Of a stretch of DNA of 64,000 bases, positions 20,700 through 50,185 are shown in pieces (positions within the stretch are counted from its first letter, which is position 1; each line of letters starts with the position of its first letter). This DNA comes from Phoronis australis (taxonomy: Eukaryota; Animalia; Phoronida), in NCBI GenBank assembly GCA_002633005.1, contig NMRA01000101.1, positions 620,001 to 684,000 on the forward strand, written 5' to 3'. The notes under the pieces are model-generated. The model saw only the letters and a program-made list of their open reading frames with translations, was not told the origin of the DNA and searched no databases. The position numbers and the translations under genes are program-made.

Positions 20700-20900
20700 T
20701 GATTGTATGATGGAGTCACACCTTAGACAAAACCATTCCACCTCAGGGGGAGGTGGATTGTCCTCAGTAACATTAGCACATTTAAAGTGAAACCGGTCGT
20801 AGCACTTGTCACATTGAATGGATGATTCAGTTACCTCATCTGGGTCCTTAAATTCTAATTTTCAAACGGAACAGAAGAAATGTTTCAGGCTTGTTTTTGA
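20700..20900 (-). pseudogene. PHD finger of the MULE polyprotein
   Basis: FCSV*KLEF..SSIQCDKCYDRFHFKCANVTEDNPPPPEVEWFCLRC matches C4HC3; the second Cys position is a TGA stop. Confidence 0.85.
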
Positions 20901-21341
20901 CCTATACTTTGACGGTTTAGAGGAAAGTTTATGCTTTGCAATATTTGCCAAACCAGTTTTTTGGAATTCGACAAGTCTTGTAGTTTTTTTAATAGGAAAG
21001 TGAGACATACGAGACAAACAAGCATCATTTTCCTCAAATGTAGAAGCTGTGATGGATTGCTCTTTGAGATGGTTGCGGAATTCTTGGAGATTTTTGAAAA
21101 TACAATTCACCCCTTCTTTATAACAATACATGCATCTTCGTTTCCTATGCTTGCACTGAATGTGTTTGCTCAGGCCATCCTCATTAGTAAAACAGAATGG
21201 TGTTTTAGCACCTTCTAAGATGCATGTGTTGCATACCTGTAATTCGGAAAGCACATTTGGCACTGGATCATTACAGGAAGTTTTTTTTTTTACAATTTTG
21301 ACTATAATTTTGTGACAGCACAGGCGGTTCACTTGATATGT

Positions 21342-21568
21342 CTAACGAAATGTTAGGGACAGCCAGTGCTTGTGAGCTATTTTCAATTTTTCTTTTTTTG
21401 ATGCCAGAATGTCTCTTCCCATTGCTTTCAATCCAGACTGAACAAATTGGTTAACATTTTTCCTTTTACACGGCCTCTTGGTTCTCCGCCCACAGAACAC
21501 TTCCTTAAACTTGTCTTTGGATGGCAAAATAGGAGGGTAAGGATCATAATTAGATTCAACATGTTCTG
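21342..21568 (-). pseudogene. HMG-box-like segment of the MULE polyprotein
   Basis: KRPCKRKNVNQFVQSGLKAM..KEKLKIAHKHWLSLT resembles the HMG-box pattern PKR..N.F.....K.....W..L. Confidence 0.55.
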
Positions 21569-22785
21569 GGCCCGGTCTCTAATCTTTGTACCCGAAACGA
21601 ACTCGAAACTATTTTTGGCAATTTCTCTGCTCCTTTTGTGCTAACTTAAAGGAGAATGCCACCCAAAAAACAACCTATTTTGTATCAATTTAGATCGATT
21701 AGTTCTACTCCATAACGGCACGTTCGGTTGCGTAACCTGACACCTGACGGTAGACGGAGGTGTTAAAATTATCCAATGACATAATTGGTTTTCACACGCA
21801 GTCTGTTCAGCAGTTCACAAAATGGGTTACTGGTGTCAGCTTATCGCTTGAATTCATCGTTTAACACCAATAAATCATTAAACTTCTATGTAAAACCCTT
21901 AAAAATACACTGAGTTCTTATAATAACGTGTTGTTTTATTTCGCTGTTACGGATTTACTGGTATTTGGACAGAACGTAGCCTACAAAGTTCGGCAGGCCA
22001 ATTTACCAAGGTCCGTTGCAGGAGTTTGAGGTCTGTTCGGAGATAAATTCGAAGTATTCTTCCGTGAAATATAGACAGGAGAACCTAGACCTGTTTTGTT
22101 TATACTTGTGATTTTTTACACAAAACGCTTGTTATCCCGGCCGGTGGCTCGGCGGAACACGATCAGACCTGTCGCGGCCGGAATGACTCGTTATCCCGGT
22201 CAGTGGCTCGGAACCTGATCAGGCCCGTCGCGGCCGCCGGGGCTGGCAAGAACATAAACCAGCTTGAGTTGGAAACTAAGTCTCCAGTCACGAAAAGACT
22301 ATAAGAGCGAGCCAAAGAAATAATGTGCACGTAATTATTTATGTGAATTAGTCACGAAACTGAAAATCTACTTACTTGTCGGGGGCCGCGAAATCGGGTT
22401 CCCCTTCCACAGACCGTCAGGGCAAAGGTTGTTGATTTGAATAATGTATTTTAATTTTGTATTTCTAAATAAAGAGTCCCCTAACATGTGACCATAGCAT
22501 ATAAAATCGAGTAATTGTTTCACAACAGCTTTCTGTCAGCAACACTGAATTAGCATGTGCTCACACGGCCTCGGTGCCCGGTCAATTACCTTTGTTGCCG
22601 GCATCAAAAGCCGGTAACGCAGTGGTTTATTCACTGCTGGCTTCTCAAAACATTTGCACTCACGAGCACTCCAAGGCATTACAAATTGTATCTAATGAGA
22701 CAGACTTTGTTTCAGTTTCATATAAGCATTGGTTAGGATGAGAATAATTGATTTTGAAACAGAACGCAGAATAATAAACGTCTAC

Positions 22786-22950
22786 ATGGCAAGTCGCCGG
22801 GAGCCAATCCCGACTTAGTCAAGAGCTCATCCGACGAAGACTTCACGGGTCGGATCGTTAGGTTTCACACGTTATCAATTCGAACCGGAATACACTGATC
22901 AAGATCTAGAAATACTAGAGAGGCGCTGTGAACATGCACGGGCAACGGAA
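22786..22950 (+). pseudogene. N-terminus of a Kolobok accessory protein (KolX-like)
   Basis: SSDEDF../GFTRYQFEPEYTDQDLEILERR; the acidic YxFEPE N-terminal motif is typical of the Kolobok second ORF. Confidence 0.55.
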
Positions 22951-23204
22951 CGTATGGATAGTTCTTTGGTAAGCCTGAATTCGTCAGAGAAATCACTGTC
23001 GGCGAAATGCCGGCCACTGACACGGAGGTGTTTCACGGCCTCATACTTGATATTAACAGCGTACCTTTCATTCTTCATTACCGCGAGCCACTTCCTAAGC
23101 ATTTCGGGCTCTCGAGGAAGTCGAAAAAACGATATACACGCTTTCTTCGCAGCTGCATAGTTCGGACAAGCGGGAATCATGCACTGCAATATAGCGGCAT
23201 TCAC
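22899..23204 (-). pseudogene. THAP domain (N-terminus of Kolobok transposase)
   Basis: CMIPACPN..SFFRLP....RKW....LRVSGRHFADSDF is a THAP C2CH pattern with the third Cys degenerate. Confidence 0.85.
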
Positions 23205-23679
23205 TCTGCAGACGAACCACTGACGTCGCTGCGTCGTTTCTCACCTTCCTCACAGGTTAACGCGACACCTCTTGGCAAGGTGAGGTCGACCGTATAAGAG
23301 ACGATGGGAATATAGACCGATTAAGATGGTAAAAAAGACTCATTAAATCGGGTGGCATTCTCCTTTAAGATAATTGGTTATCAGACTGTGCTCGAATACA
23401 TTATAGTTTATGCATAGGAGTTTCTAGTTCAAGTTTGCCCTTGAAGACCCTTATATTCGTGCTACAAACTTGATTAAAAGCTCGAAATTTCGAGTTCAAA
23501 CTCGAACTTATTGCTTTGATATTGGGTTTACAAACTGTGAACTAAGGGCAGTAAATTATCTACGTAAGTTTTTATGTACTCGAGCATAGAATAATAGACA
23601 CTTATCTTGAGTTCGCCCAAAAGTAGAGTAGAAAATGCCAAATCTAATTTCGAGTAAAAAGATTGGAGACCGGGCCCTG

Positions 23680-25590
23680 ATAATGGTTTCATTTCAGGTA
23701 ATGGTCCACATTTTCTTCTATACCCGAATTTGTGTGGCATTACTTTGGCTGGTCTCCCTGAAGAAAATTTGTTGCAAATGTAATCAGTGTGTAAAACAGA
23801 TAGGAGTGTTCCGTTCGCCTGCAGCTGTACAAAATCGTCATCAGATATTTCATGACAAATTGACCTTAAATTATCAAACCATAAATCAGAAGTACTTGCA
23901 GTGGATGGGTGTTTGAGGTAGGAAGACAAGTAATCTGGAATATGAGGCACAGTACTCATATACAATTCATATAATTTGTTTTTGCCCTTTTCATGGTTTT
24001 TGAATGATAACACAGCATACAGATGTTTACAAAAATATGGTTGCCCTACCACAATAAATGACAGACAAGTGCAAGTGCACAAATGAATGTTAGAAACATA
24101 GTTTTGGCCAGCCAACAGAGGGTGATACTCTTGAGGGATGTAAAATTTGGTCTTTTCTCTGTCAATTTGAAGCAACATTCCCAACAAATCCTTATTGGTT
24201 CTATTAACTGCAGCATCTGCAGTATACCCATGTTCAGAAATGCTAGTTTGTGACGCAGAATGACTGAAAGTAGAAAACGTGTGAATTATTCTCAGAAGAC
24301 AATTCTGCATCATTCGTAACATTTCTGTTTTTCGTATCAGTAAATACTTTCACTGCATTCACTGGAAACCAAGTACCATCCGCCTACAACAGACCTAACA
24401 TCACTAATATTGAAACTCCGTTAAATGGTATCCATTGACTTTGATTTATGATTGCTTTTCTGCTTTTCTTTGTGCGACTCCATTGTGTGTACAGTACTGC
24501 TTCACGATTTAAAATCGAAGAAATTACAACATTCACAAAGTGGCTCATTTTCCTGTTACACCGACTCTGAAGATCTGATTCTTGAATTTCTTTAAATTTT
24601 CTCTCAGTTATAATATCCGTCAAAATAAGGGGGTTTCTCTTCTCTTCATCTGAAACCAAATATAACACGGAAGATGTATAGGTATCGGTCCACATGCAAT
24701 CAAACCATTGATTATCTAAATAGTGAAAAAAATCCAAACTTGTGGACAGCATTACGGATTAAAGTGGCTTTGTCATGTTGAATTATGGGTTTAAAGGGTT
24801 CTGCTAAAGCACAGGGTCGTAACCAAAAGAAACCATTACCATCATCATAAACATACAATCTTTTGAAATGGGGACATGTTGGATCAGAACATGGCACATT
24901 GGAAGCAATTAATTCCAAAGTTAAAAGCACCGAGGCTTCATTTTCCACATTACAAATGGAGACTGCCCCAATTCTCCCTTTACGATTACTGTCGCAATAT
25001 GTTAATATAGCTGTCTTAAATCGTACAGATATAAAATCATGTTTCACATCAACTGACCCATGTTTCCGTAAGCACAACAAATTTTGTTTGCTTGCTAAAA
25101 CTATATGATAGTCTCTGTTCAAATCCTTATTTCCACGTTGAAAAAAGCACCGACTCATAATTACCCTCAACAAATTTATCTGTGTCCCTCCAATCAGATT
25201 TTATCTCCCTCACATCTCGCTTACACATAGCTAAAGCTATTTAATGCTTATCTGCTACCCTGGTACGCTTTGCAACTTGCCCCTAAGTATGGTAATGTGT
25301 GGTGTTGTTTCCAGACCCAAAGTTTACGGAAATGGCACGTAAATTTGTTGACCGGATACTCTGTGCAGATAATTTACATTCAGATCTCATTCTGTCCCAG
25401 GTAGTCGTTGTGCTAAGTGAGGGTTTCCTTTGAACTTGGATGGGTTGGCTATTGTGGTATTTGTGGTTTTTATTACTTGCATATATAGTGTACGTTTCCA
25501 AATTTGAGCTATTGATTGCAAGCTTCAATTGCCATTTGCATTTAACATGATCATGTTGAATAATTTCTGATTGATCTATAGTTGCCACTC
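23680..25590 (-). pseudogene. MULE DDE transposase with upstream WRKY/FAR1-like finger and downstream SWIM finger, frameshifted
   Basis: KCKWQLKL..NHKYHN; SVDVKHDF (D1); IIQHDKATLIRNAV (D2); FFHYLDNQW; LTDIITERKF (TNNxxE-like E); CTCTCLSF....YFCKHLYAV (SWIM CxC..CxH). Confidence 0.8.
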
Positions 25591-27408
25591 TGTCGATGTT
25601 GTGTTGTCACTTGTATAAATAATAGGTGACGCACCTGAGTTTGTCACTGAAATACCATTTACTAGAGTAATGCCTCTTGCAATTGTCACACTGTTTATAA
25701 ATACAAAGGTCAAGATTACAATTGCTACATACTGTGGTGTTACTGTGTTAAAGGTCCTTGAGCAAAGCTCCACAGTCACTTCTGCATTCATTTGTTTGAG
25801 ATGCACATGTGAGATATGGTATGTAACAATGTTTCCGTTTGTAGAGTCCGCTGTGTATGAAAATTTTCGGTCAAGCCTATTTGTATATGTATTTCCCCAG
25901 TTTTCATGTTCGTTAACAGAGACACGAGGAGTATCCTTGTTGTAAACCTTTAGAGTACATTTTGGCTCAGTGAGTACCAACTTTTGGTTCAGTACAAATG
26001 GAAATGATTCAATGAATTCCAATGCCTCAGAGCCAACACGAACCTTACCCACATCAATCCAGTCAGACTTGGAAGATAGCCATTGTACACATTCCTGGTC
26101 TATAAATGATTGAACTGAACTTAAAATTGCTTCCCAGCTTTCATTATTCCCACATGTGAAATACTTAGATGAAGTTGTACCATTGTGTAAGGAAAATAAA
26201 ATTCTTATTGACCTTTTTAGAAAGGATACTCGCGGTCTTTTTGCAACAATATCTTTTATTTTATCAAAATTGACTTTCTTTAAAAAATGTTTTGGTTCAA
26301 TCATAGATGTAGACATTATGCAAGATGATGATTTGCATTGAACGAAGTCTGTCAGGTCATTATCAATTTTCTTGGTTGTTAGTTTTTGCTGCACTGTAAT
26401 GTCTTTACTGACATTTATGGCTTTCATACTAGTTGGTGAATTAGAATTTCTCCTCTTTGCCTGTTGTTTACCCTTATTTTCCTCAATTGTTTTACCAATT
26501 GTATGTGGCATTACTGGTGTTTGAGTGCTTGGAACACTGCTTGGTGCCCTTGAAGTAGATGGAATTACCGAGTTATTTTTGATGGTGCGTGTTGTGTTGC
26601 TACCCTCTCCCTTTCTATCTAAACTCAGGGAAAGTTTTAGGAAGAGGTTGTCCACAAAAATGTCTTTTTTCACTAGCCAGTTTATTACTACCAAACGACA
26701 ATATTTGGAATGTCCTGAAATATCACGTAAGTACCTCACCTGCCTCACGGTTTCACCTTGGGCAAGTTCGGAAAACACTTTTTTCTTCAAGGCTGCAATC
26801 GCCATCCCCACAACAATAACCGCACCACAGACAGAACCACAGTTTTGTAGAGGATATGATTGAGAACAATATCTGGTACAGGCATGTGATAATTTTCCAT
26901 GGTTATAAACAGTGTCTGAAGGATCGTGAACTAATATAGTTTCAGCAGTCGATTTGCCAAATATATTTAAGAATGTGTCTAGTTGGTATTTGAAATTTTC
27001 TGGAACACCCCATCCATTTGAATCTGCATATGTTAAGACTAGTGAGTGCAAGTCATGTACTGCAAGAGCCCAATGGTTAGCAGAATCACCATTAGCAGCG
27101 GTTTGCAAGTTGGAATCTATGCCAACGTGTACAACAAAAATGAGTTCCCCTTGACAAAGGTCTCCTCTGAATTGTTCAGTAATCTTCTCCTTTAAATTGT
27201 TCAAATCACTAGGAACATTAAATATACAACAAAAGGCATGACTACATTTTTCATTTATCATGTCTGCTAATTTGGAAATGATGAGATCATTCAGCCAGTA
27301 ATCACACATAAGATCAGAAACATCATTAACAAGTAAATTTTCATTATGATTGCGACTACCAAGTTTACTGTTCATAATGTAATCTTCAAAAGACTTTACA
27401 GATGACAC
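25576..27408 (-). CDS. Ulp1/C48-like cysteine protease domain ORF (610 aa open segment of the MULE polyprotein)
   Basis: YWLNDLII, FVVHVG..NHWALAVHDL....YADS and YPLQNCGSVCGAVIV give the His-Asp-Gln-Cys arrangement of Ulp1/SENP proteases. Confidence 0.85.
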   Translation of the reverse strand: MSSVKSFEDYIMNSKLGSRNHNENLLVNDVSDLMCDYWLNDLIISKLADMINEKCSHAFCCIFNVPSDLNNLKEKITEQFRGDLCQGELIFVVHVGIDSNLQTAANGDSANHWALAVHDLHSLVLTYADSNGWGVPENFKYQLDTFLNIFGKSTAETILVHDPSDTVYNHGKLSHACTRYCSQSYPLQNCGSVCGAVIVVGMAIAALKKKVFSELAQGETVRQVRYLRDISGHSKYCRLVVINWLVKKDIFVDNLFLKLSLSLDRKGEGSNTTRTIKNNSVIPSTSRAPSSVPSTQTPVMPHTIGKTIEENKGKQQAKRRNSNSPTSMKAINVSKDITVQQKLTTKKIDNDLTDFVQCKSSSCIMSTSMIEPKHFLKKVNFDKIKDIVAKRPRVSFLKRSIRILFSLHNGTTSSKYFTCGNNESWEAILSSVQSFIDQECVQWLSSKSDWIDVGKVRVGSEALEFIESFPFVLNQKLVLTEPKCTLKVYNKDTPRVSVNEHENWGNTYTNRLDRKFSYTADSTNGNIVTYHISHVHLKQMNAEVTVELCSRTFNTVTPQYVAIVILTFVFINSVTIARGITLVNGISVTNSGASPIIYTSDNTTSTEWQL

Positions 27409-27557
27409 ATCAATAGTTTCTACATACTTCTCTTTCTTGGTGAAGGACTCTATGTCTTGAAACCAAATGTCTTCTTTTTGAACATTAATTTCATCATGAA
27501 AAGGTTATCTAAATACCTTAACCCATTTTTACTAAAAATTCCCATATCATAGTGTAC

Positions 27558-27941
27558 TTAGGTTGCAGTTGGAATTCTTTGTATTATTTTCAATCCTGCT
27601 TCAATTTGACCCTTAGGTGAAATTGTTTGAAGAGATGTTGGATCAGTAAAAATTTGACCGAAAGAAGCAGAAACCCGTGATGAATGCAACACCCCTGGAA
27701 CCTCAATGGTCATGAACTCCCTCCTGTTGAAGACACGAGAAAGAGAAACATACTCACCATACTCACCTTGGTTGTCCTGATCAACATCTTCAACATCAAT
27801 AACTTCCTTACCATCACCACCACCAAACAGTCTTTCTTTTATACCTTGGTCAGCCGTTGCTTGATCCCCCATCATCATGGTATCTTCTCTTTGGCGTACA
27901 AACTTTGTGACAGCCCAGAACACAAGTACTGCTGATGTCAA
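27558..27941 (-). pseudogene. Unnamed conserved domain upstream of Ulp1 (copy 1)
   Basis: GEYGEYVSLSRVFNRREF..FTDPTSLQTISPKGQIEAGLKII; homologous to 41489-41782. Confidence 0.7.
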
Positions 27942-28702
27942 ACAATCCAGTAGTAGATGGTCTTGTTCAATACGCTGCCAACAAAAGTGGTAACTTCAAA
28001 AGATCTATTCAACATAACGAAAAGTAAGCAGGAGTCATTATAAGGTGAAACCTCAACAAGTGCAATCCATTTTAGGTTGCTGCTTTGTGTAACTCAGTCA
28101 CTCATAGTACCAATTTTCCAGAAGAGGATAAAATCCTACCGTTTGAAAACAAAATCCTATCATTGTTTTTGGTTTTGATACATTAATGATACAAATGGAA
28201 AGTTTAAGTGAAATTTAAATTAACCAAGCTACTTTCAAGAAATATGTAGCGTCAATACTAGTAGGCAAGATCCAGATTTTAAATCTGAGTAGACCTGGAG
28301 GTAAAAAAAAATGCCACATAGGTATTCAATATCCAAAAAACTGTGGGTAAAAAATGCATCAATTACAAATTATTAAAATTTTACATAATGCTCCAGTCGC
28401 AGGTGTTGCATTAACTCTTCTGCCGATGCTGCTTCGATACACGTTTTACAGTCACTGGTAAATGCAACTTGAGGGCGACGAGGTCTCTTATGAGTCATGG
28501 TAATTGGTGATACCTCCTCAGCTGCAGGTTGTGGTTCAGCTTGCACTGGATGCACTGCATGGTCATTCTGAAATATAGATAATGCAAAATCTTACTACAA
28601 CGCAGAAGGTAAATTTCTAGGGGTTTAGTCAGGTTAACAAATGGCCACACTAAGAAGCACAAAACTTGGTTAATATGTCCCAAAATCAGTAATGTACACT
28701 AT

Positions 28703-28721
28703 GTGTGTGTGTGTGTGTGTG
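28703..28721. repeat. (GT)n microsatellite
   Basis: TGTGTGTGTGTGTGTGTGC. Confidence 0.9.
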
Positions 28722-30397
28722 CGCATTAAGTGTCCTATGCTGATTAACAATTGTGGTTTTGAAGTGTATTTTCTTCTCTACAGAGATCGTTCCTCTCATC
28801 AGTCAAATTAGCAGTTTACCAGCCTTTCCAAAACCTAATTTATGTACCCCAATTATACGTCCATCAGGAAGATGAATAAGGATGCCATCCACTGTGGCAT
28901 GAGTCAGTGGTCGAAGGCATTCTGTAGGCTTTTTGCGCTGTCTTTTTATCTTTTGGGATTTGCTGAGTCTTGTCTTCACAGTTGTTTTTGGCCGCTTCTT
29001 CTTCAAAGGCATATGAGTCTCGAGAGCAGGTGGAGTTAAAGGTACTCTCATGGCAGTCCATGATGTTGATCCAATAAACAGAGAATTCTGAATACAAAAA
29101 AAATACTAAGAGCCTCAAGTATTTTTGACTAACCAGTTACATGATGTCTCAACGTTATCAAACAATCTTAGACACCGACACGTTTCCCCACAGACAGAAG
29201 GGGAGAGGCTGTCAGTAATGTACTGCAATCTAATATTTTTGTTGTCTACCATTCTACAGTAAATAAATTACACAACCACTGTCTTGATCTAACTAGTTCA
29301 CGTCAGTCAAGAAGTAACTGCTGCTAAGCATAAATGAAATGAAACTTTTAACAAGAACACCAATGTCAGGCAAACTTTAGACATAGACAAGGGTTTGATT
29401 GGTTCTGCCACATCAACCAATAAATGAAACTGATTAAGTTCTTGATGAAAACTTACAACTGACACCATACCAATTACAGACAGATAAATAATAGGAAAAA
29501 TGTAAGCAGTCGTACCCCAACTACTCTAGAGTTAGGGAAAAGTTCAGAGAGATCCTTCTTGGTCTTGCTGACAGCAACGTCTTGAACTATAAAATCAAAA
29601 TATGGTTACGATCAATGCACACATAATTATATTGACTGCTATAGAGACCAGTTTCAGGCAAGATTACTTTCCGTCACCATGAGAATCGCCATTATATATC
29701 TAAATTTGTTTCATTTTATGAGCACTGATTCTTGCTTCTATCCTTATTTTGGTCCAGTTAGATTTACCTGTTTTGATGTAGTGTCACTGTCTGTTCATTT
29801 TGTAATGTCTAAGGCTTCCATATAGCCTGCTTTATCAGATAACTACATGTGTGTGAATGAGAAGTGACATTCCACAGCCTGCTTGGTCAATATTACCATA
29901 TACCAAAAATGATGATACTGCAATTCACCCAACCACAGGATAAAACAGTAGTTGTTGGAATATTATGCTGTAATTGTTGACTTTATTTCTGATGTGAAAA
30001 CCAACCTTGATTATCAATGTTGGGTTTCAAACCCCGAAACTGATAATTGTCAATGCTCTGATTCTTATTAGATGTGATGAAAATTTTCAAACGACTTCAA
30101 ACTGCAATATACCATACACTGTTTCTGGAACAACTTGATGCTTCACAGCATCTGCATACTTCGTTGATGTTTTTCCTTGCAGTGGAATGCTAAAAAGAAA
30201 GCATGAGGTTAATGTTTTATGAGACCCAAAATGGCAAACTAAATTCGTTATACCAAATTTTTTTGTTCTTCTTTGATCAAGAACATGTATTACTACACTT
30301 TTTCACTGACAAAGAAATTCAACACTGCTGTTTTTCAAATTGAAAATTGAGCTGGAAACTAGCACACGTCCAAATAAAAGTGAAACAAGAATACTCA

Positions 30398-33196
30398 CTA
30401 ATTATCAGAGAGTGGTGGAAGTTCTTCCTCTGTCCACATGTAAAATTTGCCGTCTTTTCCTAAAGTCTCACTCACAGTAGTCTTCAAAAACCGATGTAGA
30501 AGTATGTTCCCTTCCCTAGATGGATGAAGTCCGTCCTCTCTGAAAGGTAATAACGAATGTGTTAGGCAAATAGGACAGATTTGTATTGACATGAGTGAAT
30601 AGCACAGTGGAAATGCGGACATGATTGATGCATTTCAAATCTCTAAGATATGAAGGGAGTGAACCATTTTCAAGTGTTAGTACCTGCAAGCCTTTTTTAA
30701 AGTACAGTCAACATCAAAGAATAAGTGCAAACAAAAACAATATTTCAAATCTTAAAAGCAGGAACTGGATGAAAAAATCATAGTCCTAACAACATCAACA
30801 CCAAGGAAAATATGATGAGTTTTGGAATGCAACCCACAACGTAAAAGGCAAAAAATTCCAGGGCTGTACCCATTAAAACCATTTGCAATACATATTATGC
30901 AGCCACGCAGGACTTACACATGATTCTCGTTTTAGTACGAATTACCTTGAAAAAAGTTGAGGAAGTCGATATCTATCGAAGCATGCCGTGTAATTCACGT
31001 AGTACAAGTTGTCGTCTGTCAGTGTCATCTTCCTAACCAGTGGCTCCAGATGGTTTTGGTTTTATGTGTATACTGCAGCTGCATGCCTTTTAAAATGTAC
31101 GTGAAGAAACAGGCTATACATGTACAAACTAAGACACAATTTAAGCAAAATGACACTATCAATTCAAAACAAACGCAATAAGTGAACGGGAAAACTCAGA
31201 AAACACTAGCAAAATGAAAAATTGCGTATCGAGAATGTTGTGAACTAGAATGGAGATTGTGAAACTTAAAACAATAAGTCACTGAAGCTTAAGCTATGCA
31301 AGGAATTGATCAGGCAGCGGGCTACTGGTAGATTATGTGTTATCATGCATGCTTATGAATACAAAATAACTATATCCTATCTTGAATGCACTGTGAAAAA
31401 GGACTTTTCCTGTTGAAATAAAGTACTCTGGATGAAATGGAAGAGCAGATGTGGTAACTGCAACTCAGTGTACACGATGACTTTCATGTCCAAAATCTTG
31501 TAACTTGACTGCTCTGGGACTGCTTACCCAAATCAAAGGTGATTTCAAAGTCTTCAAGAAACGTCTTGGAAGTTCAAGTGTTCAAAATGTGATTATATTC
31601 CACTAGAGATTGTGCACATAAAGAGGATTGTGGATCTTCAGTGAAATACATACTTTCCAGAATTTGAATCTGAATTTGACGGTGTGCCTCAAGCTCGCAC
31701 GCGTATGTATGTGGAATCATGCAGGTTATTAGCAAAAGGAGAACCCACACCGGATGAAGGAGTTAATTGAAAGCAAGAAGTTTAAGGATAGGCACAGCAT
31801 GCAGTGTGGTATAGTAAAGCACTAGCAGGTATTCATTCAGTCACACAAAACTTTACCTGACTGTCAGCTGTAAAACGAACGAACAGTTACATGTTATTAG
31901 TCAGTATTTGCTGCATTGACCAATTATCAACAAAATACTGTACCTTTACATGAAACGTACTGGCAAATACCATTTAATGACATACATTGTAAATGTGTAG
32001 GTAAAAATTTGATTTCATTGTAGAACTGCTTTACAAAGAACCGGTTTCCCTAAGTCCATTAATAGTGTGATATTAAATAATTATAAAGGTAACCCAATTA
32101 AATCAAAAGTGTCCTTCAAATAGACACTTATCCTAGAACAAGTAGCTGCTGGAATGAGTTGTGTATATATTTTAGGGCTCCATGGACACTATTCAAACTA
32201 GTGCAACTAGTGACAACTTACTCGGATTTTGAGGTAGGATACTTTGTTCTAGGGTACCTTGTGCCACTTCTAAATTCTTGAGTGATAGCAAATCTGGGAC
32301 AAGATGGAAGTAATTATCATGTGCGATTGCATACAGACGGGTTTTCTTTTGTGTCCAATATTTGGATCAACTGCTCACTGTCATGCACACAGCGACAACT
32401 TATGTCTACCCTAGTAATTGGATGTGTGTGTGGGTGTGTGTGACCACTGCACTTAAAATTGAGGTAAGTTGCACTTGCTGCTGTGTGGACGAGACTACAA
32501 TGTTCATCGACAGAAGTATCATTGTGGTATTGGGATATTTCTGCAAAGACAACATGGCAATACTGATGACAAAGCAAATGTATTTCCCGGAGCACCACTT
32601 AATAAATTCAATTACTTACTTATCCAAGCGGGGCAGAAGGGATGATACAAATATCGGTCCGTCAAATATTTGTCTTGTCTTGTAAATGTAGATCCATGCT
32701 TGATGGTCGCGTGCAGTCGTCATCAGGTGGTGTCTCTTCGTTATATCATTTGTTCCCGCATGCAGAATTACCGCATAGTACTTTCCTGAGATGTTCATTT
32801 CTAACAGCGAATGAAAAGAGAAATCACTTTGTTAACAAACTTCAGTTAACTTTTGAAAAGCGTGAAATAAAGAATTCCAAAGCCCACGAACTTGATCAGT
32901 GACTTTACTTCATTAAAGAATGACTCCTCAAGTTACTCATAGTTTTCTTATGTTACATGTATGTGCTGGTAATGAAAATAATGTTCCATATTAGAAAGAA
33001 AGAGTTTTACAGAAATAAAAGGCAATATTTAGTTTCATTTCCGGGTTTAAGGATGAAATGTACCTTACTGTACTGTAGTGTTAAACTTACCATCCAAGCA
33101 AAAGCTTACACATTGTCCACTATACACTTCCAAGTCGATGCTGATGGTTCTGTCACTCTTGATGTACTTGAAAATACTATCTGTGATCACCTTAAC
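30398..33196 (-). pseudogene. Spliced SGNH/GDSL hydrolase carried by the MULE (exons about 33196-33091, 32800-32620, 31072-30946, 30540-30398)
   Basis: Block I VITDSIFKY, block II YSG, block III VILHAGTND, SSLLPR, block V FSR|EDGLHP. Introns are GT-AG and the exon 1/2 and 3/4 phases join; one frameshift is needed at exon 3. Confidence 0.8.
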
Positions 33197-34744
33197 CTGG
33201 AATAAATATTTAACTGTTTGTAATACAATCAGTTGTTTCTGTGACAAAGTAATAACATTTCACAAAATTTACAACAGTGTAACTGAAAACCATTCATTGT
33301 TCCAAGCTATCATGTAAAAACTAATGATAATTTAACAAATAGAAGTCTCTCGGCTCTGTGCTATTACACTGTGGTATAGATGTAAATATTTGTATATTAA
33401 GTCCCATTGTGAAACTATCACTTGAGCTAATGTTGACTAGTTAAATCTGAAACACAAACTTAAATAAATTTTACTAATGGTAGTCCACTGTTATCAAAAT
33501 TCCAGTACAACCTGTGTATGGACTGTAAAATACTGTGGCCGATTATGTCATGTAAGCTTATCACTGACAGATTGTCAGTTCCTTACAAGATCAAAGGACA
33601 GGCAATAAGTGGCCGAAATCACAATTAGTTTTTTTCAACAAAGCCCAGACTTGGTAAGAGAAGGTATAGGTAAAGCGTATATTATAAATCAGGGTGTGGG
33701 TAGATACAACAAAAGAAACATTAGCACAAATGCTAATAACACATGTAGATAATTATTTTTACATAGAGGTATAGAAGAAGATATAGTCAAAACCCAAATG
33801 GTTGTAAACATGCTTGTGGAGATTTGTATGAGTCTCTGTTAGTTAGCACACTTCACTTGCAGGTTTCATCGGAGTCACGGTTCGTATCTCTGTGTTTGGG
33901 TAAACTTGGCTATAGCTATACAATTGCCAACATGATGCAAAAGACATGACATGACATCGAAACAGTTCTGGCGCTCACAGTTTTTTCTCAGAAAAGTCGA
34001 AACCACCGCAGTTGAGGTTAGCCATAAAGTACAGAATTGTCGCAGGTCAAACGTCTGGAAGTCTAAAACTGAATTTACATGTATGAGTAACTAGAACATT
34101 TATATATTATGAAAACTAACACCTAACGAACGGTTACCAAGGTAACAAAACAATTTTCTACTCTAGACCTGTAAACACGGAGCTGCAAACTAACGATAAA
34201 TGACATATTAAGCACTACTTAGTAGTTATGGCTATACAAATGTAATCTTGAACACTTTAACAATTAGAAGCAATCGCTAAATTTGTAACAAGACGCGATG
34301 CAGTTAAATGTCGCTTGTAAATTCTCTTTCGATCGCAGTGTTTCTGTATCAGCAAATGCCGGAATCCGTAGGAGGTCAAAGAGCTACATCCGGTAAAATG
34401 CTATCTGGTCGCTAGATGTCGCGAGAGTAAAAAAGGTTATTTTGCGACTGGGTCGTGTTTGCGAACAGCACACAGAATTCCGTATGCCAGCATCAATGCG
34501 CATGCTTTGTCGGAAGTTTATCGATCACTCTCCACAACTTGCCCACGCCTTCTATGCACTACTTGTTTGGGCTTAGCTACGGGATCGGGGTTTTCTGTAT
34601 TTTGTTTTCTTCGATTACTGCCCGTTTTAATAAATTACAACTTCAAGTCAAAGGTGGTCGCCTATAGACCTGATTCAGGCGGCAGACATTAAAGTCCAAA
34701 GCGAGGCTCACTGCAATAAACAAAGCGGAAGTTGGCATTGCGTG

Positions 34745-39850: not shown

Positions 39851-40894
39851 TTAGCCAGTGTTTACGGGAACTATCATAGCGAGCCTCGTTTTGGAACGCG
39901 CCTCTTGTCTGTGTGAATTAGGTCTATACTACATTGTACGTAACAGTAAACTGAAAGGGATTTTCCATATTTCAACCAATGGGAATGACAGAATATTATG
40001 ACGTCGGTTTCATTTCTTTAACCAATGAGAAGCCATGATAAACAAAATTCCACAGTGCTACCTTTCGTAGCACTGTAAAAGAGCGTACGATGAGTGGCAA
40101 ATCTGTGTGGAAAAGAAATCTTTGTGTCCGACGTCGAATCAACTCTGTTTAAAAACCCGTTTTGAAATAATTATCAATATGATATAAAAATTATGATAAA
40201 AGCGTTCAGAAAATCTACAAAGTTGCTGATGTTCGACCTAAATGAGGTTCAATGACATGGTGACCGACAACTAAGTCGGTTAAATAAGCCATTTTTTGCA
40301 GTTCAGTCGTCAAATTTTCAATAAACTTTATTTAATAACTCATTTCACCATGCGGTAAATTTCAGTTCCAACGATGTAAGTCTCGGAGTTGTGGCTAATA
40401 CGACTGAGCGAGTGTCCCTATTTGAAAACAGGTGAATTAGCATTATGAAAATTACTCCGTTATGTCAAAAGGACATAAAAAGCTTTGATATTCACTTTTA
40501 GCTGTTACGTAATCCTCCGTGGTGCTGAGATTAAACATCCTGTCGGATATTTTTCGGTGAGAAGTTTGTAACTATACCTAGCAGTGTAATTTTAGCTTTT
40601 TTAATCAGGCAGTGAGGTGAAATGTACATTCCAATTTTTGCCTATAATTTTGATTATTGGTCAAGTTCAATTATGCTATCTTGTTAAGAAAGCAATTTTT
40701 GCGAGATATTGCCGTGTATTTTCAATGACACCACGTGGTTTTTTCGGGCTAGATTTCTGTTGTTGCGAGACAGCTACTGAACAATACCCAGGCCCATATG
40801 CCATTTAATGTGTTCAATGGGGTTTTGAAAAGAGTCCTTTATAGCCGCCTTAATTATCTTACACAAATTTGTGCATTATTCATTTTTGTTCACA

Positions 40895-41330
40895 ATTTAG
40901 AAACACCATTTGAATACCTCACAGTACCCTGATGGTCGTGAAGAGACGTGGTTTCCTGTATAGACTTCCCCATCCATAGCAACAACTCCGTGAATAAAGA
41001 AACAAAGTTGTCTGGAATTGACCACCCGTTAGTGTCTGCATAGACTAAAGTATAGGCAGCTCACGTCAAATGATTCTCTCGACCATCGCAAATCTTAAGA
41101 AATGTTGACGAGTTGTCATCAATGCCTACATGCATCACAAAGGCAAGTCTACTGCAGCTGACGTCAACACCAAACGTGTCTATTTTCGTTTCGGTCTATC
41201 CAGATCCACTGGCTGATTGAACAATGAACAAAAATTTGAAGAAGAACCGTCATGAACTAAACCATCAATCCTAGACATTAAAAAATCATTAAGTCAGTAA
41301 TCACAAATCAGATCTACAACATCACAGCAA
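40895..41330 (-). pseudogene. Second, degraded Ulp1-like protease, homologous to 26900-27330, truncated before the catalytic Cys
   Basis: DVVDLICDY*LNDFLMS..FCSLFNQPVDL; AFVMHVGIDDN..ENHL..LVYADTNGWSIPDNF; GKSIQETTSLHD. Confidence 0.8.
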
Positions 41331-41488
41331 TGCATCTCCTCATCGAGGAAGTTTTCGTCAAGTTTACAGCTCATCAAAGACTCTTGAAATCTGTCAGTCC
41401 AAGAAACTTCCATAGGTTCCCGGCATTTATAAGAATCGCACAGTTGATGGACATTTTCAAACCACTTTCTTCATGCTTCACCAATGAA

Positions 41489-41782
41489 CTAATGTACATT
41501 GCTTTGAATACATTCAATAGATAACGTAAACCACCTGCTTAACGAAATGATATAGAAGGGAATTTCCGTGGGATTGTCATGGTTACCATTTAACATCTGA
41601 AAGCCTGCTTCAATTTGAGCCTGTGGTGGCATTGTCTGCAAAGTAGTGGTGTCTTCAAATCCCTGATCATACGACAATTTCACATTATTTGATTGTTTAT
41701 CATTAGGAAATGTGAACCTGTCCAACTCATCACGATTTAAAATGTGTGTTAAGAACGTATACTCACCATACCTACCATTCAA
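41489..41782 (-). pseudogene. Unnamed conserved domain upstream of Ulp1 (copy 2)
   Basis: GRYGEYTFLTHILNRDEL..FEDTTTLQTMPPQAQIEAGFQML. Confidence 0.7.
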
Positions 41783-42559
41783 TTTTCCCTCATTTTAAGC
41801 CGTTGTCATCATTCTTTGCGGCACTGGTGTCGGTACCTTCCCTTGCTGATTCGGTGTGTCTTTTAGGGTGCATTGTCTTGCCATCACCACCTCTGTACAT
41901 TCTACCCTCCTGGAAAACGGCACTTCAACAGGAGGAGTAGTTAAACCACATACAGTAAGAACATCAACAGTGTTCTGGATATACTTTAAACACTAGAAAT
42001 ACTGGAAAATGATGATTCTCATCTATTTAATTAGATTTCAAAGTTGCACCCCGACGTTTCATCGTTAAGCTTAATTGCGTCGAATTACATTCATAAGGGT
42101 TTTCCATCTACACGTTTACATAAAATTCTAGAAACAAGAACCTTAATTACTATTGTCAACAACTGATTTCTACAAAAGTATCTTTGGCTTCATGTTGTAC
42201 AGTAAAACTCCATCAGTTCAATTGACGTGGTCAAAGAGAGTAGTCTGTTTTGGAGAGGTGAACATTACATTTAGGAAAGTATTGTTTGGGGAATCATACA
42301 TGGTGATGGTGAAGAAAGTGAGTCAACCCGTCAGGATCAGATAAGATGATCTTCACACAACAGGAACAGGTGGTTGTCTTTTTCACTTTCATAAGGACCT
42401 GTACTAGGCATTGCTGACGACGTGTGTGGTCTATGCCCTGAAACAAGTTCAGAAATGTTTTGAAAATAAAACCATTTATCAAACGCACATTAAAAATAAC
42501 ATATTCTGCAGAGAGCATTGCTAGAATTATGGTGTAAAACAATGTCAAATTTTTACATT

Positions 42560-44050
42560 CATCAATATCTGCTAGCATGCTTCCCTGTGGACACTGATAG
42601 CTTACTCCACTTAGTGGCCCATGTGATCCATAAATACCTGCCGGTCAGAGGGCAACATTTTCAGGTTCGCGTGTATGGTTGACTAGGGATGTCGCATTTT
42701 GGTGGCTTGCTGACTACGTCACGCAGAGCATGCACAGCCTGAGCAGTGTGACACGTTCTTTCCAGCAACAACCTTCGTGGCGAAAACGTGAGAATTGCAA
42801 TCGTCGATCTTTTTGTGATCTTTTTTCAATTAGAAGTTGGATAGCTGGTATTACGTCAAGCGGTACCAAAACCGATACGAACTTCCTACCTTTCCCATGA
42901 AGGTATACCAACTCATATTTCCCTAGCATATACTGCTCAGCCTCGTCGTGCACTGCCTGAGTATAAGAGGCAGGGACCCAAGTATCGTTCATTGCATCTT
43001 CAAACTCACTCAAGAGCATTCTCGACGTTTCTTCTCCACAACGAGCATTAAACGGGGTCAGTCTAGAAACAACCAGACTGCGGAAAAAATGATTTTCTTG
43101 AATTTTAATTCAATTTGTATACTTTGAATGGTGGATTCAATGTACATTTTGAGTTTTTTTACCTCACTCTCTTGAGGGAGTCTTGATGGTACTCTGCCCT
43201 TTTCAAGTGAAATTTTTACATAAATGTGTCTTACTCTAGGCTAGATCTCCGTAGAACTGTGCTCATAAGCTTTTCGGAAATTCTTTAACTCTTTCCTTTT
43301 GTTATCTTCCAGTGTTTCGTCACAGTGGCCATTCAAGGACTTTACAGACTTCAGTATCACTGCGTCTAACAATAGCTTTAGCTCATGTTTTTCGTTATTT
43401 CTGTTGCCTTTTTCAAGCTTCCTTATGGCACATACCATATCATCGGGATGGGACCGAGTTAACATATCTTCGCAGGACTTTTCCATCCCAACTAATTCTT
43501 TGAATTGTTTGAAAAGTCTGGCGATGGTTCGCATTTCGGTCATCACTACTTTTCTTACTTCGTCCTCCTTCCCGTTCTCATGCCGACGAAGATTGAAGTG
43601 GCGGTACCCTATCTTTCGGCAAAGGTCCCGTACTACGTCGTCTTGAAATCGGTTTAGGATGCTCTTGAAGTCTTTGTCTTTGTTGATTGTACCTAATTTA
43701 GAAGAGAGGAGGAGTCTGGGTTTGACAGGAAGTGGCCTTTCAGAATTATACCTGTGCCTATGGAAATGCAAAGTTTTGTAAAACCCCTTACACTCTTCAC
43801 ACACTTCTCAATTGGCTGTCATTCGTCGATTGTCGTTCCCGCATGCCTGGGTTTTCTTCTGCCTGCATATTTTTCACGTTAAATACATAGATCCCATCTT
43901 TCCGAACCCGATTGAAGAATGCGTTTTGGGATGATGCATCTTTTAACAAAATGTCACCAAGCTCGTCCTTATGGTTTCTCATCATGTGGCGCTTTAACTT
44001 ACCAATTTTAACTACAGTTTTACAATACTCGCAATTAAAGGGCATTACAG
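42560..44050 (-). pseudogene. Crypton-like tyrosine recombinase with N-terminal C2H2-like fingers, decayed
   Basis: CEYC..KLKRHMMRNHKDE; CEECKGFY...HRH; SRLTPFNARCGEE (R box); HGKGRKFVSVLVP (K); ATKMRH; FMDHMGH; YQCP (catalytic Tyr). Confidence 0.8.
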
Positions 44051-44569
44051 GAACTGGCCTTATTTTGTATTTCCGACAGCTAAACAAGAGGTTATTATGC
44101 TTCTTTTAGTAAATTTACTAAAAGAAGTATTTATACCCACTTACAAGAATCCGGCATCTTACACTGCGCTTTATTACTCAGGCAAAATACGTACTGATTT
44201 GTGTGATTGGATATGTTTTTGTGGTTTCTTCTCATTCTGCATTGGAACTGAAAAAAAAATTGGTAAATTCAATTTCATGTTGAACACAAGTATTGTTCTT
44301 AATGAATGCCATAGCTAGGAGTAAAAGTGCATGATTAATGAAATTTCTTTTCTACAGTGAACATTGATTAGAGTCGAATGTTTTTTATTGTTTTCAAAAA
44401 TTTTCAGACATTTGACAACATTTAGTGCTCCAAAACGTCAATCCAAACATACTTGTATTTACCTTAACTGAGACAAACTGTTGAACAGCCACCTTCGTAT
44501 TTAAAACTTATATCACTCATAATTCATTTTGAAAAGTTCATTCGACATGCGGTCATGTGAAATCAAATC

Positions 44570-45461
44570 ATTCCATGGTAAAAGTCTTGACAATATAGTA
44601 GGATCATCAAAATACTGTCTTGTCCTAGTGATCTACATGCGATGGTCCTCTTGCAAGTCCTTCAGGTGGGCATAACTGGCAGTGTTGTTGGTTCCGGCAT
44701 GGAGAACGACAGCATGTGGCTGGGGTGAGGGGATACATTTTGCTGAAAAATGTTGTAGTTCGACTGGCATTTAACTTCGAGTAGACTTTAAAATGTCACG
44801 CCACCGGGCTGTTCTGCTAGTCACCTTATCGTGAAACATATCAATATGCATAGTTAGCAACTCTGGGAGTCAACCGACCTGCCACTGACCATGCCCATCA
44901 CAGCTATTAAAGTGAAGACTAGTGCAATAAATGTCATTTACTTGCATGATTCCCCCACCAAAAGAAATTAAAATGAATATCGGATCTGTTGACTCCCATT
45001 TAGTGACGATGCACCCACATAACACCAGTATATAGCTGAGCTGAAGCATACTGTACAATCATTAATTTTAGTCATATTTTATTTGGTCATTTTCACCCAA
45101 ATCGATGTACATGCGCACAGCTTTGCACCAAGGCTAAGCCCAATGCAGCACCATCTTTGGAAAGCATCGTAGTACAGTGTTAATGGATATTCATCTCTAC
45201 CAACACTCAACTTGGGAGCTTGTTCCAGTTTGAAGTTTGTAATTAAGACTTACTGTACTTATGACTTGACATAATTTGAATGACATGAAGGCATAAAATC
45301 CTGATCTAAGATATTGCGTCAACGACCCCAGTAATGAATCAGTAGCTTGCACATACCTGCAGCTTATGTAGTCACTTTTCTTCCTGGTTTTGCAATCATC
45401 TTTACATCCACATCACTTGTTGATCTGACATACTTCAGGATACTATCAGTAACAATCAAAC
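44570..45461 (-). pseudogene. Second spliced SGNH hydrolase (exons 45461-45357 and 44742-about 44570)
   Basis: LIVTDSILKYVRS..AKPG; AVVLHAGTNN..HLKDLQEDHR..TRQYFDDP..SRLLP; same intron position and phase as the MULE copy. No block V (DGLH) exon found. Confidence 0.75.
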
Positions 45462-48400: not shown

Positions 48401-48462
48401 ACTATCCAGGCAGCGTCACCAAGTCTAACTGAACATACCATAATCTGGCATTCAGTTGACCA

Positions 48463-48614
48463 GCCTCCCGTTCAGTAACGCTAGGACCTCGCTAAAAAAA
48501 CAAGACTTCACGAGAATGCGTGAAATATTGCCGTGCATTTTGAATGAGAACACGCGACTTTGACTACATTTTAGCTAGGTCCTTGACTAGGTCCTAGCGT
48601 TATTGAACGCACCT
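48463..48614. mobile_element. Short MITE (Harbinger-like)
   Basis: CGTTCAGTAACGCTAGGACCT / AGGTCCTAGCGTTATTGAACG inverted arms; a related fragment lies at about 40700-40795. Confidence 0.6.
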
Positions 48615-48714: not shown

Positions 48715-48879
48715 GTAAGGGCTACAGCAAAAGACATCGGTGAGTTGACATGTTCTAGCAATTGCTATCAGCCTATTGCCACACATCCTCGTTAGATAGT
48801 AGTCACGGCAGTGCACATGCCGTAATGATGAAATGATGCTTCGCATAAAGTGACAGTACAACTTTGGGCGATGCTTTAA

Positions 48880-50185
48880 AGGCGAAGGCAACCTTTTTTC
48901 ATGTCATTTTTAGCAAAAATAGGATTCGTTGATTATCCCAGACATATTTTTCACTTATTTACAGCTTTTCGTAATTTAATTAATTACTCGTCGTCTACTC
49001 CGAAAGTGACATTTTGAGAGGCAAGAATTTCGCGCCAATTTCTTTTCATACAGTCTGACTGTGAGAGCAGTCGAGTCAGTCATTGTTCTACCTCGGTGGT
49101 GATAAGTTCGGTCGTCGTTTGCTTTTGTTTACGAGTCAGTCAACATGCCACGCTGTTGCTGCCTACCGAGATGTACTCATTATCGTCTCACGTACAGAGG
49201 AAGAACTGTCCCACTTGCCCGAGTGTACCGCGACACACTCCCAGTGGATGGTGACTTGAGCACCTAAACTGCTTACAAAGTCCCGCCGTGCGACTCCCTC
49301 GTCACACACGTGGCACCTTCTAACTAGCTCCAATACAAGTCCACAATAAACTTAGGCTCAGCGATCTGTTCATTGGATGTCGAACTATACTTTTCACTGG
49401 GTGTCAAACTGGGCCTGTATTCACTCCCACTACTCAGCATCGCTGCAGGGCTGCTTACAGGCTCTGGACTAGAGACAACAGCACACGGGGAATCACTGTT
49501 AGTTCCTGGAATTGCACGCTATGGGGTACGTTCGGAGGCATAGGTGACAGTAGATGAAGTGCCCCCAGTCACTGTATATAGTGGAAATAGCCCGCGAGGC
49601 TTCTCGCTTCAAAAACGCACTTCTTGGGGGTGGCGACGGGGCACTGCCGGGAATCAGCAGCGACGGTATGGAACCCTTCTTCAGGCGTTGTTTCGCAGGC
49701 ACCTTTATCAATTCAGCGTACATATCTCTGTCGCAGTCTGATGGCTGAAAATGCTTGCCACTGCTTTGTACGTTGCGTGAGCGGGTAGCGCTGCGTTCTT
49801 CACACGAACGAGCTAGCCAAGTACGGCGAAATGTGTCATCCTTTGGAATGCGATGCAAGGTAACCAAAGCGCGTGTGAGACGATAATGAGTACATCCTGG
49901 TACGCAGCAACAGCGTGGCATGTTGACCGACTCGTAAACAAAAGCAAACGACGACCTAACTTATCACATCCGAGGTAGAATAATGACTGACTTGACAGCT
50001 CTCACAGTCTGACTATGAAAAGAAATTGGCGCGAAATTCTTGCCTCCCAAAACGTCACTTCCGGAGTAGAGGACGAGAAATTAATTAAATTACGAAAAGC
50101 TGTACATAAGTGAAAAATATGTCTGGGATAATCAACGTATCCTATTTTTGCTAAAAATGACATGAAAAAAAGGTTGCCTTCGCCT
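48880..50185. mobile_element. Foldback Kolobok derivative, TTAA TSD, ~310 bp inverted arms
   Basis: TTAA|AGGCGAAGGCAACC...GGTTGCCTTCGCCT|TTAA; arms 48880-49191 and 49874-50185. Confidence 0.9.
49192..49921 (-). pseudogene. Truncated THAP-Kolobok transposase
   Basis: MPRCCCVPGC..LHRIPKD...RRTW..KHFQPSD..RLKKGSIPSL, then EPKFIVD..RCHVC..GAQVTIHWEC..HSGKWDSS. Confidence 0.85.

What the first reader, a model, noticed from the sequence alone, without database searches (positions are those of the whole stretch)
40895..45461. Sister cassette with the same SGNH / unnamed domain / Ulp1 modules but a tyrosine recombinase in the middle: a possible DDE-YR hybrid or integrase-swapping transposon family
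Seen: the - strand order is SGNH (45461-44570), YR (44050-42560), YGEY domain (41782-41489), Ulp1 (41330-40895). This is colinear with the MULE at 19363-34462, which has no recognisable YR between SGNH and the YGEY domain. The cassette breaks off at about 40895 inside Ulp1, so whether a DDE transposase followed cannot be seen, and I found no termini. Established: MULE DDE enzymes and Crypton YRs are mechanistically unrelated. Inference: either (a) a large element encoding both a YR and a MULE transposase, (b) one cargo module shared by YR-mobilised and DDE-mobilised elements, or (c) a Crypton inserted in a MULE. Options (a) and (b) would be a new architecture to my knowledge.
Basis: partly seen in the sequence, partly recalled or inferred. 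Interest (0 to 1): 0.88.

Follow-up and report, generated by a model that had tools for sequence, protein, structure and literature searches.

The report
Dead Mutator transposon with recombinase fragment
This is a broken, single-copy piece of a cut-and-paste jumping gene of an invertebrate animal with one recombinase exon from an unrelated kind of jumping gene lodged inside it, most likely an ordinary one-off nesting rather than a new hybrid family, because its relatives in this window and in other animal phyla have the same layout with no recombinase found.

Summary
In detail: decayed SGNH, tyrosine-recombinase (YR), 'YGEY' and Ulp1-like remnants lie in that order on the minus strand, 31-47% identical to the TIR/9-bp-TSD MULE at 19363-34462, and the assembly is confirmed by a raw contig. 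The reading changes. YGEY+Ulp1 is not shared cargo: it is the N-terminal part of the MULE transposase polyprotein (12 of 150 homologues run on into the same transposase). Nemertean (Tubulanus) gene models read SGNH-C2H2-Ulp1-GATA-DDE-SWIM-PHD with no YR, and the query's Ulp1 is sister to the window MULE's (SH-aLRT 99). The YR is one exon, 52% identical to bivalve SET-YR-C-terminal-domain proteins that carry no SGNH or Ulp1; its SET and C-terminal parts are absent here, as is the SGNH catalytic exon. The locus is single-copy and all modules are equally decayed. Best reading (0.72): a dead MULE copy that gained a Crypton-type YR fragment once. A MarCry-like hybrid MULE family (0.2) is not excluded, since no second copy could be examined; a 34-bp palindrome beside the YR exon is its only hint. 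YR+DDE and YR+Ulp1 elements are already in print.

The parts
45357..45461 (-). SGNH/GDSL hydrolase exon 1 (block I, TDS motif), one stop; MULE-derived
   Evidence: 31% id to sister 33190-33103, p=0.002; profile E 2e-3; AG/GT splice sites read from sequence
44463..44742 (-). SGNH exon 2 (block III, HAGTN motif); homology shown to 44567, exon end inferred from a GT donor; the following DGLH exon is absent
   Evidence: 47% id to sister 32777-32631; profile E 2e-7; DGLH-exon profile hits only the sister
44145..44247 (-). possible short exon (AG...GT bounded), unassigned; may be the linker exon of the YR donor gene
   Evidence: splice signals seen in sequence; no significant match to either parent
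44097..44130 (.). 34-bp near-perfect palindrome (17-bp arms, 1 mismatch, no loop), 17 bp upstream of the YR exon acceptor
   Evidence: longest in the window; none in 20 local shuffles of the window; single-copy depth
42557..44079 (-). tyrosine recombinase exon (C2H2, core-binding and catalytic domains; R, K, R, H, Y positions recognisable), 2 stops + 6 frameshifts; SET and C-terminal domain of its relatives absent
   Evidence: fold of homologue P0003; Pfam Phage_integrase E 0.009 on P0012
42300..42437 (-). probable C2H2 exon of the MULE transposase gene (weak: same motif spacing and same exon end as the sister's 28567-28383)
   Evidence: local p=0.038; window-wide profile E only 3.6; C2H2 at this place in full-length relatives
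40895..41909 (-). GGG motif + 'YGEY' extension + Ulp1-like (CE-clan) protease, one exon, cut off before the catalytic Cys; 5' part of a MULE transposase gene
   Evidence: tree sister to window MULE SH-aLRT 99; Peptidase_C48 look-alikes
40694..40742 (.). piece of an unrelated high-copy repeat just beyond the truncation point
   Evidence: depth jump and loose ends; 80% copy at 48522-48561
19363..34462 (-). sister MULE used as reference: TIRs, 9-bp TSD, SGNH gene, C2H2-Ulp1-GATA-like-DDE-SWIM-PHD transposase gene, no YR

Best explanation
The stretch is the dead 5' half of a Mutator-like (MULE) transposon, with one recombinase exon of a Crypton-type element sitting where the last SGNH exon and the intergenic DNA lie in the sister, most likely by a one-off nesting event in this copy. 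The parent MULE would have moved by its DDE transposase, which carried the Ulp1-like protease at its N-terminus and had an SGNH hydrolase upstream (shown for the sister and for nemertean relatives; inferred for this copy, whose DDE part is gone). The YR piece would come from a SET-YR-C-terminal-domain element, either by insertion followed by deletions across both junctions or by a single gap-repair capture of about 2 kb (inferred; the two routes cannot be told apart). Nothing here is functional now.
For: (1) Ulp1 unit belongs to MULE transposases: 12 of the 150 best homologues continue into the window MULE's downstream transposase region, 6 of them through the DDE core, 3 more carry Pfam MULE; 0 of 150 and 0 of 19 further cluster members carry a YR (best E 0.48 and 0.18). 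(2) The SGNH-C2H2-Ulp1-DDE order without YR is cross-phylum: 3 of 11 Tubulanus models hold SGNH through DDE, and 4 more hold SGNH through at least the C2H2/GGG region. (3) Query Ulp1 is sister to the window MULE (SH-aLRT 99) inside a 13-row group with 9 same-transposase rows (support 91), so the YR is a gain on the query's branch (quick tree, 94 of 150 homologues covering the region). (4) The sister's DNA between SGNH and C2H2 is fully visible and has no YR trace. (5) The YR's relatives with full gene models are SET-YR-C-terminal domain (Ruditapes P0012, Argopecten P0017); 0 of 34 YR-search proteins carry SGNH or Ulp1; SET and C-terminal domain are absent from the window, so the YR here is a fragment. 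(6) The SGNH has lost its catalytic exon at the junction yet its two remaining exons are no more decayed than the rest (about 2 breaks in 91 codons against 8 in 492 for YR; YR 8/492 v. MULE-derived parts 9/473, p=0.81, MULE-part count by hand), which fits a junction made about when the copy died. (7) Single-copy depth (47-68 in most bins) from 40838 to 48185 at 80% likeness, against multi-copy depth for the sister family.
Against: No Crypton termini or insertion scars were found, and the insertion route needs two deletions that both spare the YR exon. The YR is in the same orientation, complete from acceptor to donor, and only 119 bp from the C2H2 exon, in one open frame with it if the intron is read through. 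Equal decay fits joint inheritance as well as near-simultaneous death. The query is a different family from the sister (38% Ulp1 identity) and no second copy of that family could be seen, so family-level absence of the YR is not shown. The negative protein counts are weaker than they look: only 22 of the 150 Ulp1 homologues have 100 or more residues upstream of the first Ulp1 domain, 4 have 200 or more, 30 of the 34 YR proteins are under 600 aa, and spliced models would hide a YR gene lying in an intron.
Confidence: 0.72

Rival explanations
1. An extinct or low-copy MULE family stably carried the YR between its SGNH and transposase genes (a MarCry- or Tec-like composite). The DDE enzyme would have moved it; the YR would have been a passenger or a resolvase acting at an internal site, for which the 34-bp palindrome beside the YR exon is a candidate.
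For: Same strand, intact exon borders, short flanking introns, equal decay. The palindrome has the length of lox/FRT-type sites (recalled: 13+8+13) and is not a chance feature (0 in 20 shuffles). Precedents exist: MarCry-1_FO, Tec1/Tec2 (PMC3212892, passages and section 6 read), Tn4430 TnpI/IRS (PMC2847244, start of abstract only).
Against: Single copy; no YR in the sister or in any of 169 Ulp1-unit proteins; SGNH broken at the junction; YR lacks the C-terminal domain its relatives keep; the palindrome is symmetric through its centre, which suits a fold-back repair scar as well as a binding site; no such palindrome (arm 10 or more) in the one YR locus fetched, which is short and badly decayed.
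Confidence: 0.2
2. A YR-mobilised (Crypton-type) element took over the SGNH and Ulp1 half of a MULE as cargo and never had a DDE domain.
For: No DDE remnant follows in the window; oomycete Cryptons carry Ulp1-type C48 peptidases (PMC3212892).
Against: The Ulp1 breaks off inside the domain before its catalytic Cys, next to an unrelated repeat, so the missing DDE is explained by truncation. MULE-derived sequence lies on both sides of the YR in MULE order. No YR protein with SGNH or Ulp1 among 34. Where the partner integrase of this Ulp1 clade is visible it is always a MULE-type DDE.
Confidence: 0.06
3. The juxtaposition is an assembly chimera.
For: The window is repeat-rich and has gaps elsewhere (N runs at 7254, 11300-11851, 52994).
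Against: One independently assembled contig spans 40105-46636 at flat depth 47 with 3 substitutions.
Confidence: 0.02

Closest known systems
Ulp1- and PHD-carrying Mutator (MuDR/MULE) transposons of hydra, lancelet and plants (PMC2836005, passages read; PMC6446971, passages read)
   Same: Ulp1-type protease joined to a Mutator transposase; in the sister also PHD, SWIM, TIRs and a 9-bp TSD (8-11 bp is the MULE range).
   Different: This clade adds an upstream SGNH hydrolase and a GATA-like finger, and its DDE domain is missed by Pfam MULE; SGNH in MULEs did not turn up in my paper searches. The query copy has lost the DDE half and its ends.
MarCry-1_FO of Fusarium oxysporum (PMC3212892 section 6 read; PMC13465315 passage calls it the only reported Crypton with a DDE gene)
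   Same: A Crypton-type YR inside a TIR-type DDE transposon.
   Different: MarCry is Mariner + CryptonF, shown in four copies over 97% alike with TIRs and TA TSDs; here it is MULE + an animal SET-associated YR, in one decayed copy with no ends.
Tec1/Tec2 of Euplotes crassus (PMC3212892, passage read) and bacterial Tn4430 (PMC2847244, start of abstract)
   Same: DDE transposase plus YR in one element, YR thought or shown to resolve intermediates.
   Different: Those are real families with intact genes; no second copy, intact gene or activity is shown here.
CryptonF-2_PS and CryptonS with C48 (Ulp1) peptidase (PMC3212892)
   Same: YR next to a Ulp1-type peptidase.
   Different: There the peptidase is Crypton cargo; here it is the front of a MULE transposase and groups with MULE-linked domains.
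CryptonV (Kapitonov and Jurka, Repbase Reports 2012, seen only as cited in PMC8869645 and listed in PMC5753468)
   Same: Animal YR DNA transposon; the SET-YR-C-terminal layout and the FNxRRxGE motif of the bivalve relatives are what I recall for this group (recalled, not from a call).
   Different: No Repbase comparison was possible; no microsatellite target or terminus was found near the YR.

Membership tests
MULE/MuDR (query 40895-45461) | Mutator DDE transposase with C/DxxH signature | tested here: inconclusive
   Absent from the query because it is cut off at 40895; present in the sister and in 6 full-length relatives (D, HDxD, CxxH, E aligned).
MULE/MuDR (query 40895-45461) | TIRs and 8-11 bp TSD | tested here: not met
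   No match to the sister's TIR above background; no long inverted pair in 40600-48600 other than two local hairpins. The copy is truncated, so this lowers 'intact member', not 'derived from'.
MULE/MuDR (query 40895-45461) | Descent from a MULE lineage (gene order and phylogeny of the surviving transposase part) | tested here: met
   Ulp1 sister to window MULE, SH-aLRT 99; order SGNH-C2H2-GGG-Ulp1 as in sister and Tubulanus models.
MULE/MuDR (sister 19363-34462) | TIRs, 9-bp TSD, DDE with CxxH-type insert, SWIM | tested here: met
   65-bp TIR 97%, TSD 8/9, SWIM E 8e-5, PHD E 1e-9, transposase homology to relatives; Pfam MULE itself does not hit.
Tyrosine recombinase superfamily (YR exon) | YR fold and R-K-H-R-H/W-Y catalytic set | tested here: met
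   Homologue P0003 model pLDDT 71, Foldseek top hits XerA/XerH E 7e-4 to 4e-3; R, K, R, H and Y positions recognisable in the window, the HxxR His replaced family-wide.
Crypton (YR segment) | YR without reverse transcriptase | tested here: met
   No RT among Pfam hits of 39 window ORFs or in full-length relatives P0012, P0017; decayed RT remnants were not sought by profile.
Crypton (YR segment) | Own termini (short direct repeats, or none in animal Cryptons) | tested here: inconclusive
   No boundary can be set from one copy.
CryptonV | Clustering with Repbase CryptonV YRs; microsatellite target in some families | not testable with these tools
   No Repbase sequences on hand; no microsatellite near the segment.
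YR-DDE composite family (MarCry/Tec type) | Both genes in several independent copies sharing ends | tested here: not met
   Single-copy depth at 80% likeness; 0 of 169 Ulp1-unit proteins and 0 of 34 YR proteins join the two; more diverged copies were out of reach.
Ulp1/C48 (CE-clan) protease | His-Asp-Cys triad and clan similarity | tested here: met
   Sister keeps H, D and QxC-type Cys motifs; all 6 PDB hits are CE-clan but weak, E 0.85-1.6; two homologues pass or near Pfam C48; Atlas C48 look-alikes score 0.95. Query keeps H and D, Cys is cut off.

The most novel reading that the evidence does not exclude
An animal MULE lineage acquired a Crypton-type tyrosine recombinase and a 34-bp symmetric site beside it and spread as a composite, a eukaryotic counterpart of Tn4430 in which a DDE transposase copies the element and a YR resolves the intermediate; this locus would be its fossil.
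Probability: 0.12. Interest if true: 0.72.

Novelty: new member of a known kind. Interest (0 to 1): 0.24.

Why it matters
As a one-off nesting it matters little: such chimeras are common in repeat-rich animal DNA. If further copies showed a stable MULE-YR composite, it would be the second DDE superfamily known to carry a Crypton YR (after MarCry), the first I could find in animals, and a handle on the old question of how Mutator elements gain copies. The more solid by-product is the host clade itself: large MULEs with an SGNH hydrolase and a Ulp1-GATA-DDE-SWIM-PHD transposase, shared between this animal and a nemertean, with the transposase part also in crabs, a shrimp and a limpet, which I did not find described.

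Tried and rejected
Scans for YR loci: viral contigs none, prokaryote genomes none, metagenomes one 5-kb decayed fragment with no usable neighbours. Ulp1 scan of viral contigs none. Long-protein searches gave one Ulp1 triple repeat without integrase and one SET-YR protein; both are weak negatives. Single-sequence fold of the Ulp1 domain failed (pLDDT 32) and was not used. YR profile against PDB sequences gave nothing useful. No RNA holder listed in the run index; raw RNA reads laid on the query gave only scattered reads over the YR and no splice joint among the joints shown, 60 more not shown, so expression and YR splicing are untested rather than absent. Reads at 44675 with 10 or more differences point to a diverged SGNH relative elsewhere in the genome; it cannot be placed. 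A splice-phase argument (YR donor phase 1, C2H2 acceptor phase 0) was dropped because a second acceptor 7 nt downstream restores the frame. A chance-looking 'SGWH' word in the sister at 29019 was rejected (no profile support). The careful tree did not finish; the quick tree is reported, and 56 of 150 homologues that do not cover the query's stretch were left out. No YR-versus-Ulp1 tree comparison was made, since no element holds both. Earlier-finding look-ups by place and sequence were empty. Paper searches; Repbase Reports and subscription journals are outside the library, supplements were not opened, and Repbase may hold both the MULE clade and the YR group.
Full report
What was checked. The window is animal DNA with spliceosomal introns and many transposon remnants; no whole genome is held. 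I translated the region and the neighbouring element in all frames, compared them, searched for relatives of the recombinase and the protease, and laid one DNA run and three RNA runs of the same species label on both elements.

On the minus strand lie two SGNH exons (45461-45357; from 44742), a tyrosine-recombinase exon (44079-42557), and one exon holding the 'YGEY' stretch and a Ulp1-like protease (41909-40895). The non-YR parts are 31-47% identical in protein to the element at 19363-34462. That element is a MULE: 65-bp TIRs at 97%, a 9-bp TSD with one mismatch, SWIM, PHD, and a DDE core that aligns with six full-length relatives. A YR profile finds no trace in it. One contig covers 40105-46636 with 3 substitutions and 6 gaps at flat depth 47, so the order is not an assembly error, though that run may be the window's own source.

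The YR. It aligns over 487 residues at 51.7% identity to a Ruditapes protein, with 2 stops and 6 frameshifts. A model of a close homologue (pLDDT 71, 25-row alignment) matches XerA and XerH best. The relatives with full gene models read SET - linker - YR - C-terminal helical domain (Ruditapes P0012, Argopecten P0017). Neither SET nor the C-terminal domain is anywhere in the window, and none of 34 proteins from the YR searches carries SGNH or Ulp1 (30 of them are under 600 aa and mostly single-exon calls). I recall this layout as CryptonV-like; that name could not be tested.

'YGEY' and Ulp1 are the front of a MULE transposase. A search of 1.84 billion representatives with the sister's protease gave 329 hits at E 0.001 or better; the best 150 were fetched. 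None has a YR (best E 0.48). Twelve continue into the same downstream transposase region as the window MULE, six through the DDE core, and three more carry Pfam MULE (44 of the 150 were scanned with Pfam). Named hosts are a nemertean, crabs, a shrimp, a limpet and Aplysia. Their N-termini show C2H2 finger, GGG motif, YGEY-like extension, protease. The query has the GGG motif (p=0.002) and probably the C2H2 exon at 42437-42300 (p=0.038 locally, E 3.6 window-wide; same exon end as the sister). So MULE-derived sequence probably resumes 119 bp after the YR exon. Limits: only 22 of the 150 have 100 or more residues before the first protease domain, and spliced models would not show a YR gene inside an intron.

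The SGNH is part of the same MULE clade. Tubulanus polymorphus models begin with a GDSL/SGNH domain (Pfam E 1e-9 to 5e-6 in 8 models) and run on through C2H2, GGG, Ulp1, GATA-like finger, DDE and PHD: 3 of 11 models hold SGNH through DDE, 4 more SGNH through the GGG region, none a YR. Thus SGNH-C2H2-Ulp1-DDE without YR is seen in two distant animals. In a quick maximum-likelihood tree of 96 protease domains the query is sister to the window MULE (SH-aLRT 99), within a group rich in same-transposase rows (support 91). The YR is therefore a gain on the query's branch.

One-off or family? The query lacks the last, catalytic SGNH exon; the YR segment stands where that exon and the intergenic DNA stand in the sister. 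Break density is alike in all parts: YR 8 in 492 codons, MULE-derived parts about 9 in 473 (hand count; p=0.81). Had a living family lost its SGNH catalytic exon long ago, the remaining SGNH exons should be more eroded; they are not, though the count is small. Depth is single-copy from 40838 to 48185 at 80% likeness, apart from short repeat-like bumps at 44512-45179, whereas the sister shows about twice single-copy depth inside and several-fold more at its ends, with a deletion derivative skipping 24303-30416. These points favour a one-off: a Crypton-type insertion trimmed by deletions, or a single capture of about 2 kb during gap repair, as Pack-MULEs capture gene fragments (PMC6431247, passage read; the mechanism here is inferred). 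Against it: same orientation, intact exon borders, an open frame from the YR end through to the C2H2 exon, no Crypton ends, and no second copy of the query's own family to compare. A 34-bp palindrome at 44097-44130, 17 bp from the YR acceptor, is the longest in the window and is absent from 20 local shuffles; it could be a recombinase site or a fold-back scar.

What is known. PMC3212892 (passages and section 6 read) describes MarCry-1_FO (Crypton YR fused with Mariner, moved by the DDE enzyme), notes Tec1/Tec2 with DDE plus YR, and CryptonF-2_PS and CryptonS with a Ulp1-type peptidase. PMC13465315 (passages) says MarCry is the only Crypton reported with a DDE gene. PMC2836005 (passages) lists Ulp1 in Mutator elements of hydra, lancelet and plants. 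PMC6446971 (passages) gives the 8-11 bp TSD and variable extra ORFs. My searches found no MULE-YR composite and no SGNH-carrying MULE; Repbase Reports were not searchable.

Verdict. Real sequence, dead locus. One-off YR fragment in a truncated MULE 0.72; stable MULE-YR composite 0.20 (0.12 for the version with a working resolvase and site); YR-mobilised element with MULE cargo 0.06; artefact 0.02. Interest 0.24, part of it owed to the SGNH-carrying MULE clade.

Noticed in passing
window 19363-34462; proteins P0189, P0192, P0196: A cross-phylum clade of large MULEs with an upstream SGNH hydrolase and a C2H2-Ulp1-GATA-DDE-SWIM-PHD transposase missed by Pfam MULE; in Tubulanus models the SGNH is spliced onto the transposase. 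Not found in my paper searches.
   Followed up: partly
window 24303-30416: A multi-copy deletion derivative of the sister MULE skips this stretch (joint depth 389 against 47 single-copy; 5-6 RNA reads in two runs), keeping nearly the whole SGNH gene and the SWIM/PHD end while dropping Ulp1 and most of the DDE.
   Followed up: no
window 21646-23368: Very high-copy THAP-containing TIR element nested in the sister MULE; many reads show the empty site; related copies near 9640-10484 and 36666-37288.
   Followed up: no
window 44097-44130: 34-bp palindrome beside the YR exon; unexplained.
   Followed up: partly
window 47013-47107: 95-bp hairpin with 30-bp arms at 87% (z -3.6), probably a tiny non-autonomous element.
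   Followed up: no
window 37395-39930: Harbinger-like remnant (DDE_Tnp_4, HTH_Tnp_4) with a THAP-like start near 39880; similar THAP start at 53315-53546.
   Followed up: no
window 48875-50190: Element with about 317-bp TIRs (93%) around a THAP ORF at 49499-49960.
   Followed up: no
protein P0009 (also P0037, P0038, P0042, P0047): Proteins with two or three tandem copies of the YGEY-Ulp1 unit.
   Followed up: no
window 44675: RNA reads (14 in one run) with 10 or more differences map to SGNH exon 2, so a diverged relative of the query's SGNH is present elsewhere in the species and read in RNA runs.
   Followed up: no
window 1790-4251 and 56225-59529: Two about 90% identical copies of a 2.5-3.3 kb repeat, not identified.
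   Followed up: no
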